From the UHGV virus genome UHGV-0310739: a stretch of 32,363 nt of DNA. One strand, 5' to 3'. The stretch is from a virus. Shown here one piece after another: positions 1 to 9,552 of the stretch. The notes beneath the pieces were generated by a model, which saw only the letters and a program-made list of their open reading frames with translations, did no database searches and was not told where the DNA came from. Position 1 is the stretch's first letter. Every line of letters begins with the position of its first letter. The translations under genes were made by a program, and so were the position numbers.

Positions 1-206
1 TTAGGATCGTGGTTAAACAGTGCGCGTACATCATCACCAAGCACATCGTCAAAAGCGCCGGGCCGGATGATTTCGCGGAATGAACCGAATATCAGCTCAG
101 AACGACAGTCAAACACCGAACCATAACCGATAATGTGCGCCGGGTTATCGTCATGCCTCTCAGCACGCACCTCACCGCTGTAACAACGGATTTCACGGTC
201 ATTCAT
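1..206 (-). CDS. Prohead protease, HK97 family (N-terminal part; gene continues beyond window start); flanking DNA outside the Mu-like element
   Basis: Minus-strand ATG at 206-204 preceded by GAGGG; translation MNDREIRCYSGEVRAERHDDNPAHIIGYGSVFDCRSELIFGSFREIIRPGAFDDVLGDDVRALFNHDP carries the PGAF...DVRALFNHD pattern I associate with HK97-type prohead proteases. Not in ORF track because it has no stop in the window. Confidence 0.55.
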   Translation of the reverse strand, partial: MNDREIRCYSGEVRAERHDDNPAHIIGYGSVFDCRSELIFGSFREIIRPGAFDDVLGDDVRALFNHDP

Positions 207-323
207 TGGTTTTTCCCTCATCGTTTTTTGGGGGCTTAAAATCTCCTGCCGGGTTAGCAGCATTCACGCTTACCAGCATCTCGTCCAGCCCTTCAACCGG
301 ATTCATATCCTCGAATGCGCGGG
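199..323 (-). pseudogene. Possible 3' remnant of a gene interrupted by the Mu-like insertion (or a 35-aa small ORF); reading frame open from the attL junction to a TGA overlapping the protease start
   Basis: Minus-strand frame reads RAFEDMNPVEGLDEMLVSVNAANPAGDFKPPKNDEGKTNE then stop at 201-199, overlapping the protease ATG. Only 5 codons are open upstream of the internal ATG, so the evidence for disruption is weak. Confidence 0.25.
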
Positions 324-7237: not shown

Positions 7238-7767
7238 TGTTTTTTAAAACGTCAAATTCCGCAGCACTGCTGGCATGGGACCAGTTTATGGCGGACTGCC
7301 TGAAACTACGCGAAGAAGCCCGCCATCTTGATAAGGTTCTGGGCTGTGGTTGCCGGTCAGTATTCAGCACAGGTATTGGTGGGCGTCATTTTCATGGCGT
7401 GAATTTTCCGGGGAATGAGCGCCCCTTCTCGCGGGAGCTGTGGACCGTACAACGGCCCGCATCAGGTAACAGTTGCAGGCCCAGAACTTCACGGATACCT
7501 GCTCATCTCAGGGAGCAGGCAAGAGAGCTGGCGAAAATATGGCAGGAGAATATTCCGGTCACTTACGCCCGCACAGACGCTCTTTTACCCGCACTGGGAC
7601 TGGATTTCAGCGCAACAATATTCGGGCCGCTCCAGTGGTTCCGTGTTGGTGATGTGATTTACGTCATGACGGGGATGACACCCGCACAAGGCCGCATGAC
7701 TGAAATCCTTTCTGACGAATTTATCCGGGCGCAAAAACAGGCGGAGGTAAACAATGGAAAACAATGA
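7237..7767 (+). CDS. Hypothetical early protein
   Basis: ATG 7237 with GGAGG 7 nt upstream (ORF track opens at 7198); 176 aa. Confidence 0.5.
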   Translation: MFFKTSNSAALLAWDQFMADCLKLREEARHLDKVLGCGCRSVFSTGIGGRHFHGVNFPGNERPFSRELWTVQRPASGNSCRPRTSRIPAHLREQARELAKIWQENIPVTYARTDALLPALGLDFSATIFGPLQWFRVGDVIYVMTGMTPAQGRMTEILSDEFIRAQKQAEVNNGKQ

Positions 7768-7946
7768 AAAACAATGAAACATCGTATTCGTGGCTGGGGA
7801 AATTTACCACGGTGAAACAGGAATGCCCGACCTGCGGTAATGAATCTCCTGAATATCTGAAAGAGTGCCCTCATTGTGGCGGGCAGAAATGCAACCACTG
7901 CGATATGGGCGATGACACGGCGTGCATGAATTGTGAAGGTGAATAA
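7764..7946 (+). CDS. Hypothetical Cys-rich zinc-ribbon protein
   Basis: 60 aa with four CxxC pairs (CPTC, CPHC, CNHC, CMNC); start overlaps the upstream stop (ATGA). Confidence 0.5.
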   Translation: MKNNETSYSWLGKFTTVKQECPTCGNESPEYLKECPHCGGQKCNHCDMGDDTACMNCEGE

Positions 7947-8238
7947 TATGAATAATGAAACTAAATTTACGCCTAAAGACCTGGATGAAGAACTGGTGAA
8001 AGCTAAGATGCTTGAGCGTATGCGCGATGTTATTGAGACTGCAATCAGTAAAGGCTTTTCTGCGAGAGAGGCCCTTGAAATTATGACACGGGAAATTCAT
8101 CTCATACGCGACGAAGTTTTGTTGCATAACAAAAAAGCCCACAACAATATTGTTTGTCGTGAGCTTGGCGTTGATGATTCAGCGGTTATTCCACAGCGTC
8201 AGTATCTGTGTGCTCTGATGAGAGGTTCCCGGCATTAA
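7933..8238 (+). CDS. Hypothetical protein (last rightward early ORF before the AT-rich island)
   Basis: 101 aa; GAAGGTG RBS 6 nt before ATG 7933; 3' end overlaps the convergent minus-strand ORF by 53 bp. Confidence 0.5.
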   Translation: MKVNNMNNETKFTPKDLDEELVKAKMLERMRDVIETAISKGFSAREALEIMTREIHLIRDEVLLHNKKAHNNIVCRELGVDDSAVIPQRQYLCALMRGSRH

Positions 8239-8545
8239 CAATATCCTGCCTTGAAGCCCAGAGCTTATTGAGCAGCAGATCAACATACTCATCGGCCTCA
8301 AAATCCAGTTCTTCGAACGTTTTTCGGTTCTTATAGCTGGCCTGTGTATTTCTGATGATGTCATAAGCATCGTGCATGTTGATAACACCGTTTTCAATCA
8401 GCTTAATCATCAGATTACCGACCAGCATAAAACCGGTTATACCAAAGAATTTATCCTGGTTATTAACAGGGGTGTCTTTCTGGTTTGTTTCGAAATCTGG
8501 GTTTTGTTCATCATCCGACACCGTATGTTGTTCTTGTTCAGCCAT
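8186..8545 (-). CDS. Hypothetical acidic protein encoded antisense to the early operon (candidate moron)
   Basis: 119 aa; AAGGA RBS about 6 nt before the minus-strand ATG at 8545; Asp/Glu-rich with a disordered-looking N-terminus; sits in a visibly AT-richer segment where a 120-codon open frame is unlikely by chance. Confidence 0.6.
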   Translation of the reverse strand: MAEQEQHTVSDDEQNPDFETNQKDTPVNNQDKFFGITGFMLVGNLMIKLIENGVINMHDAYDIIRNTQASYKNRKTFEELDFEADEYVDLLLNKLWASRQDIVNAGNLSSEHTDTDAVE

Positions 8546-8614
8546 AATATTTCCTTTTATGTTATTACTGAATATGGCGGTGTTGCAGCACCGCCTCTTT
8601 CCGGAGGTACGATC

Positions 8615-9166
8615 ATGAGTCGCACATCCCTGATTAAATTAATCCATGTCGCCCGTCGGGAGCTACAACTCGACGACGACACTTACCGCGCTTTTCTGAT
8701 GCAGAAAACGGGCAAAATCAGTTGCCGCGAGCTTACGGTTACGCAACTGGAACAGGTGCTCGATGCCATGAAAGAACGCGGCTTTAAGAAGCTGAATAAA
8801 TACCCCCGTCGCCGCTTTAAGGAACATGTCACACCCCGCGAGAAGGTGTATAAAATCTGGCAGCAGATGGCAGAAGACGGTTTTATTACCGATGGCGGTG
8901 ATGTGGCGCTGGACAGATATGTTCAACGCCTGACCGCGAAACGCAACGGCGGACAGGGTGTTTCCACACTGGCGTGGTGTCATGGCGACACGCTGCTGAC
9001 AGTCCTCGAAACACTCAAACAGTGGCACATCCGCTGTATTCGTGAAGCCTTTTCCCGTCACGGGCTTCCATTGCCGGTCAGTCCGTCCGGTCGTGAACTG
9101 CGCGGCTATGATGCCATGACGGCGGCTTATGCCCATGCCAGAAAGACACGGAGGATGGCACAATGA
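8615..9166 (+). CDS. gemA: GemA-like protein (Mu gene 16 position)
   Basis: 183 aa from ATG 8615 with GGAGG RBS (track ORF 8372..9166 opens upstream at a GTG through hydrophobic AT-rich sequence); immediately upstream of and overlapping mor, as in Mu. Confidence 0.7.
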   Translation: MSRTSLIKLIHVARRELQLDDDTYRAFLMQKTGKISCRELTVTQLEQVLDAMKERGFKKLNKYPRRRFKEHVTPREKVYKIWQQMAEDGFITDGGDVALDRYVQRLTAKRNGGQGVSTLAWCHGDTLLTVLETLKQWHIRCIREAFSRHGLPLPVSPSGRELRGYDAMTAAYAHARKTRRMAQ

Positions 9167-9552
9167 CGGAAGATTTATTTGGTGATTTGCAGGATGACAC
9201 CATCCTGGCACATCTTGACAATCCCGCAGAGGATACGTCACGCTTTCCGGCACTGCTGGCGGAGCTGAACGATTTACTACGCGGGGAATTGTCCCGACTG
9301 GGTGTTGATCCTGCCCATTCACTGGAGATTGTTGTGGCTATCTGTAAGCATCTGGGCGGCGGTCAGGTCTACATTCCACGCGGTCAGGTTCTGGACTCGC
9401 TGATTCGGGATTTGCGTATCTGGAATGATTTTAACGGTCGCAACGTCAGCGAACTGACCACCCGTTATGGTGTCACTTTCAATACGGTTTACAAGGCCAT
9501 TCGCCGGATGCGACGGCTGAAATACCGCCAGTACCAGCCCTCACTTCTGTAA
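9163..9552 (+). CDS. mor: Middle-operon transcription activator Mor
   Basis: 129 aa; C-terminal region (GGGQVYIPRGQVLDSLIRDLRIWNDFNGRNVSELTTRYGVTFNTVYKAIRRMR) is paralogous to the C protein downstream; followed by a strong terminator. Confidence 0.85.
   Translation: MTEDLFGDLQDDTILAHLDNPAEDTSRFPALLAELNDLLRGELSRLGVDPAHSLEIVVAICKHLGGGQVYIPRGQVLDSLIRDLRIWNDFNGRNVSELTTRYGVTFNTVYKAIRRMRRLKYRQYQPSLL

What the first reader, a model, noticed from the sequence alone, without database searches (positions are those of the whole stretch)
7933..8614. AT-rich island with a strongly initiated acidic ORF antisense to the early operon
From ner to mor everything reads rightward except one 119-aa ORF (8186..8545, minus strand) with a near-ideal AAGGA RBS. 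It sits in a segment visibly AT-richer than the flanking phage DNA, where a 120-codon open frame is unlikely by chance, and its translation is protein-like (acidic, disordered N-terminus, then a compact helical region). It converges on and overlaps by 53 bp the last rightward ORF (7933..8238). As I recall canonical Mu, no gene is encoded leftward in this region, so this looks like acquired cargo. Antisense placement implies expression from its own promoter, possibly in the lysogen when early transcription is repressed. That profile fits superinfection-exclusion, anti-defence (acidic DNA-mimic) or defence morons, but the function is unassigned.
Basis: partly seen in the sequence, partly recalled or inferred. 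Interest (0 to 1): 0.7.

Follow-up and report, generated by a model that had tools for sequence, protein, structure and literature searches.

The report
Leftward accessory gene in Mu-like prophage
The antisense reading frame is a real but uncharacterised small gene, the phage D108 version of Mu's little-known leftward gene 15, which travels with its neighbour gene 14 as a swappable two-gene cassette; it is a tidy annotation result, not a new kind of system.

Summary
The ORF 8186..8545(-) is there as described: a 119-aa frame with an AAGGA ribosome-binding site, a 53-bp tail-to-tail overlap with gp14, and GC of 0.42 against 0.53 for the window. It is a real gene. Homologues of 34-64% identity occupy the same slot in Mu-like prophages of E. 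coli, Klebsiella, Citrobacter and Salmonella. Only the leftward frame stays open, with pN/pS 0.07-0.37.

RefSeq Mu has a leftward gene here (Mup15), which is a probable remote homologue. The current GenBank Mu record instead annotates a rightward ORF (Mu_54), and D108 annotates nothing.

The island replaces the Mu version; it is not an insertion. gp14 and this gene diverge together (r=0.72), independently of GemA.

A leftward hairpin followed by a T-run lies inside gp14 in all 10 alleles, with compensatory changes and better pairing on the leftward strand. A conserved GC hairpin (8576-8595) separates the gene from gemA. No promoter was found.

The predicted protein is three helices with acidic tails specific to this allele. 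No family, defence-system or fold match was found, so function is unknown. I infer an accessory protein made independently of the early operon.

The parts
7971..8575 (.). Exchangeable gp14+g15 cassette. It diverges from Mu here, while the flanks are about 97% identical to Mu.
   Evidence: Alignment of window, D108 and Mu and megablast coverage. GC is 0.416. gp14 and g15 co-diverge independently of GemA.
7948..8238 (+). gp14-like gene (96 aa, phrog_6075). It is the last rightward early gene before the leftward gene, and its 3' end overlaps g15 by 53 bp.
8125..8166 (-). Leftward intrinsic-terminator-like hairpin (13-bp stem, 6-nt loop, then U6) starting 20 nt after the g15 stop and embedded in gp14 coding sequence.
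   Evidence: Terminator scan. Fold energy -17 to -19 kcal/mol, z = -2.9. The same element occurs at the homologous gp14 position in 10 alleles. There, 90% of cells pair, 3 pairs carry compensatory changes, and pairing is 90% on the leftward strand against 79% on the rightward.
8186..8545 (-). g15-like gene, 119 aa (phrog_38610; WP_021526008.1 in E. coli JCKP02; VUD37876.1 in Mu_3F6). Conserved three-helix core at residues ~28-105, with acidic N- and C-terminal tails specific to this allele.
8552..8556 (-). Shine-Dalgarno AAGGA, 6 nt upstream of the ATG of g15.
   Evidence: Sequence. Every allele has an SD at comparable spacing.
8576..8595 (.). Conserved GC hairpin or dyad, GGCGGTG-TTGCAG-CACCGCC, between the g15 start and the gemA ribosome-binding site. 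Its role is unresolved.
   Evidence: Unique in the window. Identical in Mu, SfMu, E. coli L012 and Klebsiella loci. The Citrobacter variant has two compensatory stem changes. Among 80 GemA loci it occurs only next to g15-family genes or their deletion scars.
8615..9166 (+). gemA (PF06252), the conserved right flank. It is transcribed divergently from g15, with start codons 69 nt apart.

Best explanation
Shown:
- The ORF is a real leftward protein-coding gene. It is the D108-type allele of the gene family that includes Mu gp15.
- Together with gp14 it forms a two-gene, tail-to-tail cassette. This cassette is exchanged as a unit among Mu-like phages of Enterobacteriaceae and is sometimes deleted, so it is accessory.
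- The gene has its own ribosome-binding site.
- It is followed by a leftward hairpin plus U-run, built into the gp14 coding sequence, that is conserved across alleles.
- It is separated from gemA by a conserved GC hairpin.
- The product is predicted to be a small soluble three-helix protein. This allele adds acidic, probably disordered tails.

Inferred:
- The gene is transcribed leftward as a short monocistronic unit, independently of the early promoter Pe.
- Convergent early transcription after induction should interfere with it. If so, the protein would be made mainly when Pe is quiet, in the lysogen or before early read-through arrives.
- Its fast divergence, allele swapping and dispensability fit a protein that acts on a variable host or phage partner, possibly gp14, rather than a core replication or regulatory function.
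- Its molecular target is unknown.
For: Coding:
- Homologues of 34-64% identity were found in 16 protein clusters.
- dN/dS in the leftward frame is 0.07-0.37.
- In frame-agnostic ungapped comparisons only the leftward frame has no stops, and it has the lowest pN/pS, 0.21-0.28.
- For the Mu-type allele against a 52%-identical relative, the leftward frame is the only open one, with pN/pS 0.52.

Synteny: in all places looked up by protein and in the survey loci that carry the gene, it lies between a gp14-like gene and GemA on the opposite strand.

Link to Mu gp15:
- Same slot, and the same distance to the hairpin.
- phrog_32893 is hit by all alleles, with E from 8e-23 to 6e-4.
- hhalign gives E = 1e-4.
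- The bridging allele B2 hits the window-family HMM at E = 3e-6.

Cassette behaviour:
- Sharp boundaries against Mu.
- Co-divergence with gp14 r = 0.72, with GemA r = -0.05.
- Natural deletions exist.

Terminator.

Structure.
Against: - No sigma-70-like promoter was found on the leftward strand, either within 230 nt upstream in 7 of 8 alleles or anywhere up to window 10900. Independent and lysogen-specific expression therefore remain unproven.
- No transcript or protein data could be found.
- Structure confidence is modest (pLDDT 61 and 69.5) and no fold or family match supports any function.
- Part of the terminator's conservation could reflect conserved gp14 codons (NKKA...RREL).
- gp14/g15 co-divergence could be due to physical overlap alone.
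- Homology to Mu gp15 is only probable (hhalign probability 57%).
Confidence: 0.6

Rival explanations
1. The main function is cis-regulatory. Leftward transcription, and/or the GC hairpin at 8576-8595, would modulate how much rightward early transcription reaches gemA and mor, by transcriptional interference, antisense pairing over the gp14 3' end, or partial termination. The peptide would be secondary.
For: - The unit is placed convergently, immediately before the gene for the middle-phase activator Mor.
- The hairpin is 100% conserved across phages whose flanking proteins are highly diverged. It carries compensatory changes in Citrobacter and occurs only together with g15-family genes.
- T-rich tails follow it on the rightward strand, for example CATTTTTTAT in L012.
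- The GenBank Mu record places a semi-early promoter for gemA in this intergenic region.
Against: - Purifying selection acts on the amino-acid sequence, and a conserved protein motif persists across alleles that are saturated at synonymous sites.
- Every allele has a strong SD.
- Phages that lack the unit still carry gemA-mor directly after rightward genes, so the unit is not needed for Mor timing.
Confidence: 0.15
2. The protein is a small dimeric DNA-binding regulator that binds the dyad GGCGGTG-N6-CACCGCC. It would control its own expression and that of the divergent gemA-mor (gem) unit.
For: - The arrangement is the classic one: a divergent gene pair with a perfect dyad between them.
- The dyad co-occurs with g15-family genes.
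- The motif K-L-V-E-K-G-V-I resembles the end of recognition helices in winged-helix proteins. This resemblance is my own recollection and was not tested.
Against: - No HTH or other DNA-binding family matches in Pfam, NCBIfam or PDB sequence searches.
- The dyad is identical for proteins that are only 17-21% identical (window against Mu-type alleles).
- The dyad differs between the Klebsiella and Citrobacter alleles, whose proteins are 67% identical. This is the opposite of operator-regulator co-variation.
- All alleles are acidic to neutral, pI 4.3-5.8.
Confidence: 0.08
3. One reading: an acidic DNA-mimic anti-defence protein or a superinfection-exclusion moron.
For: - Net charge is -15 and pI 4.3.
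- The cassette is AT-rich, swappable and dispensable.
- The neighbouring genes gam and gemA interact with host DNA-end processing and license Gabija defence in Pseudomonas Mu-like phages (PMC12407980).
- Antisense overlapping genes with exclusion activity exist in the transposable phage Fc02 (PMC9936078).
Against: - The acidity lies in predicted disordered tails found only in this allele and in P0014. The conserved core is -4 and other alleles are -1 to -5.
- No PADLOC, Pfam or PHROG functional hit was found.
- No similarity to solved DNA mimics appeared in PDB sequence or fold searches.
Confidence: 0.12
4. The ORF is not a gene. The coding frame here would be rightward, as in the current GenBank Mu annotation (Mu_54), or the region would be non-coding.
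For: - AF083977.1 annotates the rightward Mu_54 in place of gp15.
- D108 records annotate nothing here.
- Antisense shadow frames are partly open: + frame 1 of the window has only one stop.
- A Mu_54-like frame is also open in the B2 allele.
Against: - Every rightward frame has stops in one allele or another, and none has a conserved start or SD.
- Rightward frames show higher pN/pS. By my own reading of the two translations printed, Mu_54 and its B2 counterpart are only about a third identical, against 52% for the leftward product; this was not computed.
- The leftward product has homologues across four genera.
- PGAP and RAST-type pipelines call the leftward gene.
Confidence: 0.03

Closest known systems
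Phage Mu gp15 (Mup15, NP_050619.1; phrog_8747); the old label F-134 in M64097 is the same leftward frame with a start further upstream
   Same: - Same slot, between gp14 and gemA, and same leftward orientation.
- The 3' end overlaps gp14 (62 bp in Mu, 53 bp here).
- The start codon is 30 nt from the same GC hairpin, and a leftward hairpin plus U-run lies 20-23 nt after the stop.
- Shared N-terminal motif [FY]D[IV]AG[FY]...L[VI].K..I.
- Both proteins hit phrog_32893.
   Different: - Only about 21% identical; BLASTP finds nothing.
- 88 aa against 119 aa.
- Mu gp15 lacks the acidic tails and is near neutral.
- The function of Mu gp15 is itself unknown, and the current GenBank Mu record no longer annotates it.
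phrog_38610 / phrog_32893 (PHROGs families of unknown function)
   Same: Full-length match to phrog_38610 at E = 8e-83, and a core match to phrog_32893 at E = 5e-7. The Klebsiella, D and B2 alleles link the three PHROGs.
   Different: These families carry no annotation, so membership says nothing about function.
Morons of lambdoid phages (a single gene with its own promoter and terminator, of deviant composition, often expressed from the prophage). Definition as summarised in PMC4378225.
   Same: - Deviant AT-rich composition.
- Absent from close relatives.
- Its own terminator.
- Orientation independent of the surrounding operon.
   Different: - No promoter was detected.
- The mobile unit is two convergent genes, one of which (gp14) belongs to the early operon.
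- The slot is occupied in most Mu-like phages of enterobacteria that were surveyed, so this is an old, diversifying locus and not a recent one-off insertion.
Antisense overlapping genes of Pseudomonas transposable phage Fc02 (olg1 and gene 10), which have superinfection-exclusion activity (PMC9936078)
   Same: Both are genes on opposite strands of the early/regulatory region of a transposable phage. In Fc02 one strand is expressed in the lysogen and the other after induction.
   Different: - The location differs: next to ner/repressor in Fc02, not next to gemA.
- The Fc02 overlap is extensive, not limited to the 3' ends.
- No sequence relationship was tested or is expected.
- The resemblance is an analogy only.

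Membership tests
Mu gp15-like leftward early-region gene family (phrog_38610 / 32893 / 8747) | Encoded leftward between a gp14-like gene and gemA in a Mu-like phage | tested here: met
   Window gene order. Same order in Mu, SfMu and Yersinia phages and in E. coli, Klebsiella and Citrobacter prophages.
Mu gp15-like leftward early-region gene family (phrog_38610 / 32893 / 8747) | Sequence homology to family members | tested here: met
   phrog_38610 at E = 8e-83 over the full length. 16 protein clusters at E from 1e-17 to 1e-36 with the family profile. Allele D by hhalign: 97% probability, E = 4e-11.
Mu gp15-like leftward early-region gene family (phrog_38610 / 32893 / 8747) | Homology to Mu gp15 itself | tested here: inconclusive
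   BLASTP finds nothing. hhalign gives probability 57%, E = 1e-4 over 41 columns. Both proteins hit phrog_32893, at 5e-7 and 6e-4. Allele B2, 52% identical to Mu gp15, hits the window-family HMM at E = 3e-6 to 5e-6. Foldseek against BFVD ranks the Mu leftward ORF second, but at E = 0.87. Homology is probable, not proven.
Mu gp15-like leftward early-region gene family (phrog_38610 / 32893 / 8747) | 3' overlap with gp14 and a leftward hairpin plus U-run inside gp14 | tested here: met
   Overlap is 53 bp here, and 39-62 bp in the other loci where it was measured; the Citrobacter figure used wrong coordinates and was not redone. The hairpin is conserved in 10 alleles with covariation.
Moron (lambdoid sense) | Own promoter | tested here: inconclusive
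   No sigma-70 consensus match on the leftward strand. A simple consensus scan cannot exclude weak or activator-dependent promoters.
Moron (lambdoid sense) | Own terminator | tested here: met
Moron (lambdoid sense) | Inserted between genes that are adjacent in related phages, with deviant composition | tested here: met
   In vB_YpM_3 and L036, gp14 directly abuts the hairpin and gemA. GC is 0.416 against 0.529. Relative to Mu, however, the segment is a replacement and not an insertion.
Moron (lambdoid sense) | Expressed from the repressed prophage | not testable with these tools
   Needs lysogen RNA-seq or reporter assays.
DNA-mimic anti-restriction proteins (Ocr / ArdA type) | Sequence or fold similarity to known mimics, with a folded domain whose acidic surface is conserved | tested here: not met
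   No Pfam, PADLOC or PDB sequence hits. No significant fold hits. Acidity is confined to allele-specific tails; the core is -4 and other alleles are -1 to -5.
Known anti-phage defence or toxin-antitoxin proteins (PADLOC-DB) | Match to a defence-system model for g15 or gp14 | tested here: not met
   No families at E <= 1 for g15, gp14, the Klebsiella homologue or Mu gp15.
Helix-turn-helix transcription regulators | Match to an HTH family or fold | tested here: not met

The most novel reading that the evidence does not exclude
gp14 and g15 would form a mobile two-gene conflict module. g15 would be made when the early promoter is silent and act as a lysogen-phase effector, for example exclusion of other phages or modulation of a host target. 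gp14, made from the early operon on induction, would be its antagonist. Convergent transcription, the terminator embedded in gp14 and the GC hairpin before gemA would form the switch between the two states. If true, this would be a previously unrecognised kind of self-immunity cassette in the Mu semi-essential region.
Probability: 0.1. Interest if true: 0.7.

Novelty: new member of a known kind. Interest (0 to 1): 0.33.

Why it matters
For Mu biology this is a modest but concrete correction.
- Comparative evidence favours the leftward gene (the old gp15) over the rightward Mu_54 in the current GenBank Mu record. It also shows that the D108 records miss a gene.
- It defines a small superfamily linking three PHROGs. 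The family has at least six allele classes across four enterobacterial genera.
- It shows that the mobile unit is gp14 plus g15.
- It points to two conserved nucleic-acid elements, a leftward terminator written into gp14 codons and a GC hairpin before gemA. These give testable handles on how the end of the Mu early operon is organised just before the middle-phase activator Mor.
- It does not reveal a new mechanism. The protein's function remains unknown.

Tried and rejected
- Pfam, NCBIfam, PADLOC and PDB sequence searches gave nothing for g15, gp14, the Klebsiella homologue or Mu gp15.
- PHROGs returned only families of unknown function.
- The exhaustive HMMER search returned one spurious hit (P0003, a eukaryotic sushi-repeat protein), which I discarded.
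- Promoter scans on the leftward strand were negative. I also looked by eye for sigma-54, extended -10 and Mor/C-type arrangements around the hairpin and found no convincing match. The geometry leaves no room for a promoter between the hairpin and the SD.
- Polymorphism within the Mu-type allele (9 sites) was too small to discriminate gp15 from Mu_54. The more distant B2 allele was needed.
- Rfam gave no family for the hairpins.
- Literature searches found no functional, transcript or protein data for Mu gp15 or this protein. PMID 9454718 (the semi-early promoter paper) and the D108 heteroduplex paper are not held.
- I considered an N-terminally extended GemA (GTG 8372, 264 aa) and rejected it. 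It is the antisense shadow frame, it is not conserved, and the conserved GGAGG-N7-ATG sits at 8615.
- Five of the 25 exact hairpin matches in IMG/VR (L020, L029, L030, L037, L042) are unrelated GC-rich contexts and were ignored.

Full report
**What the window is.** Positions 324 onward are a D108-like transposable prophage. Window 7500-9200 is 100% identical to Escherichia virus Mu_3F6 and 97.6% identical to D108. It covers Mu only 64%, in two pieces. The immunity region is D108-type. One of 5,426 complete E. coli genomes (strain JCKP02, from yak) carries the segment, at 100% identity.

**Observation.** The ORF 8186..8545(-) of 119 aa exists.
- It has AAGGA 6 nt upstream of its ATG.
- It overlaps the rightward gp14-like ORF by 53 bp.
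- GC across 7933-8614 is 0.419, against 0.529 for the window, which is in the lowest 1-3% of windows of that size.
- A closed ORF this long arises in 0.75% of shuffles.
- gp14 more probably starts at ATG 7948, as annotated in D108 and by PGAP.

**Is it a gene?** Yes.
- An exhaustive HMMER search and a profile search found 16 protein clusters with 34-64% identity, from E. coli, the Klebsiella/Raoultella group, Citrobacter and Salmonella. One hit (P0003, a sushi-repeat protein) is spurious.
- Every genomic context examined is a Mu-like prophage. The homologue always lies on the opposite strand between a gp14-like gene and GemA-Mor.
- dN/dS in the leftward frame is 0.07-0.37.
- In ungapped, frame-agnostic comparisons the leftward frame alone lacks stops and has the lowest pN/pS, 0.21-0.28. 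The other five frames give 0.37-3.8.
- The N-terminal acidic tail is also under mild constraint (pN/pS 0.44). The C-terminal 18 codons are dominated by the overlapping gp14 frame.
- PGAP (WP_021526008.1) and the Mu_3F6 annotation call the gene. The D108 records do not, although they encode the identical protein.

**Relation to Mu.**
- RefSeq NC_000929 annotates Mup15 (gp15, 88 aa) at 7896..8162(-), in exactly this slot. SfMu and Yersinia Mu-like phages do the same.
- The updated GenBank record AF083977.1 replaced it with a rightward 55-aa ORF, Mu_54. It also places a 'semi-early promoter' in the gp15-gemA gap.
- The window protein and Mu gp15 are not alignable by BLASTP, but several lines link them:
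  - they share the motif [FY]D[IV]AG[FY]..........L[VI].K..I;
  - both hit phrog_32893;
  - hhalign scores E = 1e-4, probability 57%;
  - MAFFT aligns them along all three helices.
- Intermediate alleles bridge the gap. Allele D (76 aa) matches the window family at E = 4e-11. Allele B2 (88 aa, 52% identical to Mu gp15) hits the window-family HMM at 3e-6.
- For Mu gp15 against B2, the leftward frame is the only open one, with pN/pS 0.52. The Mu_54 frame gives 0.70.

I conclude that Mu gp15 and this ORF are probable remote homologues and positional equivalents. The leftward annotation is the better one.

**Cassette.**
- Against Mu, identity breaks at window 7971 (codon 8 of gp14) and resumes at 8576.
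- Across nine loci, gp14 and g15 identities co-vary (r = 0.72) and are uncoupled from GemA (r = -0.05).
  - Window against Mu: GemA 98%, gp14 34%, g15 21%.
  - Window against L012: GemA 43%, gp14 81%, g15 64%.
- The unit is dispensable.
  - vB_YpM_3 and L036 lack g15.
  - L026 lacks gp14 and g15.
  - L033 lacks more.
  - PhiR68_1 has other genes there.
- Some Mu-like loci hold an unrelated leftward 138-aa gene (phrog_585) in the same slot.

The 'island' is therefore an allelic replacement of a two-gene cassette at a recurrent site for leftward cargo. It is not a one-gene insertion.

**Transcription signals.**
- A terminator-like hairpin lies on the leftward strand 20 nt after the stop. It has a 13-bp stem followed by U6, at 8166..8125.
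- The same element sits at the homologous gp14 codons (..NKKA...RREL..) in all 10 alleles examined.
  - 90% of cells pair, against 35-51% when partners are slid.
  - Three pairs carry compensatory double changes.
  - The covariation score exceeds all 500 shuffles.
  - G-U pairs make pairing better on the leftward strand (90%) than on the rightward (79%), and the T-run follows the stem only on the leftward strand.

  This is comparative evidence for a leftward transcription unit. Part of the conservation may still come from gp14 codons.
- Upstream, the GC hairpin GGCGGTG-TTGCAG-CACCGCC (8576-8595) lies 30 nt from the g15 ATG and 7 nt from the gemA SD.
  - It is identical in phages with very different GemA and g15 proteins.
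  - It has a loop variant, an inverted copy and a Citrobacter variant with two compensatory stem changes.
  - Among 80 GemA-anchored loci it occurs only next to g15-family genes or their deletion scars.
  - Its role is unresolved.
- No sigma-70-like promoter was found for the leftward gene. No Rfam family matches.

**Protein.**
- AlphaFold2 gives a disordered residue 1-28 followed by three helices (pLDDT 61; 69.5 for the 84-aa Klebsiella homologue).
- Fold searches return nothing specific.
- Pfam, NCBIfam, PADLOC and PDB sequence searches return nothing.
- Net charge is -15, but the conserved core is -4 and other alleles are -1 to -5. A DNA-mimic surface is therefore not a family property.

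**Mechanism.**
- Shown: a conserved, fast-diverging, dispensable small protein gene with its own SD and a conserved leftward terminator. It moves together with gp14.
- Inferred: it is transcribed independently of Pe and is damped by convergent early transcription after induction. It would act as an accessory protein on a variable partner, possibly gp14 or a host factor.
- Rivals: a mainly cis-regulatory role before gemA-mor, a dyad-binding regulator, a DNA-mimic or exclusion protein, and a non-gene. These are weighed in the Rival explanations section of this report. The last is effectively excluded.
- No literature on the function or expression of Mu gp15 was found. The gem operon next door is reported to be expressed constitutively in lysogens (Paolozzi and Ghelardini 1992, as cited in PMC3820752).

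**Verdict.** This is a real gene, already present in databases as a hypothetical protein, and a member of the (here enlarged) Mu gp15 family. Interest is modest.

Noticed in passing
window 1-323 and 324-360: The first 323 bases are 99.7% identical to the portal / head-protease region of phage SfV. The Mu-type left end (TGTATTGATTCACTTGAAGTACG) starts at 324. The D108-like prophage therefore appears to have transposed into another, SfV-like prophage.
   Followed up: partly
window 8576-8595: A perfectly conserved GC hairpin or dyad, GGCGGTG-TTGCAG-CACCGCC, lies just upstream of the gemA ribosome-binding site. It is identical in Mu, SfMu, Klebsiella and a divergent E. coli prophage. A Citrobacter variant has compensatory stem changes and L078 has an inverted copy. 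It occurs only where a g15-family gene or its deletion scar is present. Its function is unknown.
   Followed up: partly
L002 / L004 (phage Mu 7896-8162): Public Mu records conflict. RefSeq NC_000929 has the leftward Mup15, while GenBank AF083977.1 has the rightward Mu_54 (7960..8127). The D108 records annotate neither strand. Comparative evidence here favours the leftward gene.
   Followed up: yes
window about 7760-7783: A 10-bp tandem duplication (AAAACAATGA) sits at the gp12/gp13 junction and is absent from D108 and Mu. gp12 is unchanged. The gp13 start moves and its second residue changes from E to K.
   Followed up: partly
L044:1054-1470 (also L060 and similar loci): In other Mu-like phages the same slot holds an unrelated leftward 138-aa gene (phrog_585; DUF2513 below threshold). 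Its start is 31 nt from the gemA ATG, and a different short inverted repeat spans the two ribosome-binding sites.
   Followed up: partly
window 8372-9166: The GemA reading frame is open upstream to GTG 8372, giving a 264-aa ORF. This is the antisense shadow of the leftward gene and is not conserved in other alleles. The conserved GGAGG-N7-ATG start is at 8615.
   Followed up: yes
window 8711-8726 (minus strand): A weak terminator-like hairpin on the leftward strand lies inside gemA (GGCAACTGATTTTGCC followed by CGTTTTCTGC) and is also present in Mu. If functional, it would confine any g15 promoter to 8546-8711.
   Followed up: no
L012 / L013: 2964-3386 (locus + strand; leftward relative to the early operon, like the g15-like gene): In the divergent E. 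coli Mu-like prophage that carries the 64%-identical homologue, the gene caller places a 140-aa ORF between GemA and the Mor/C-like gene, on the strand opposite to them. It may be a miscall of mor or another leftward gene.
   Followed up: no
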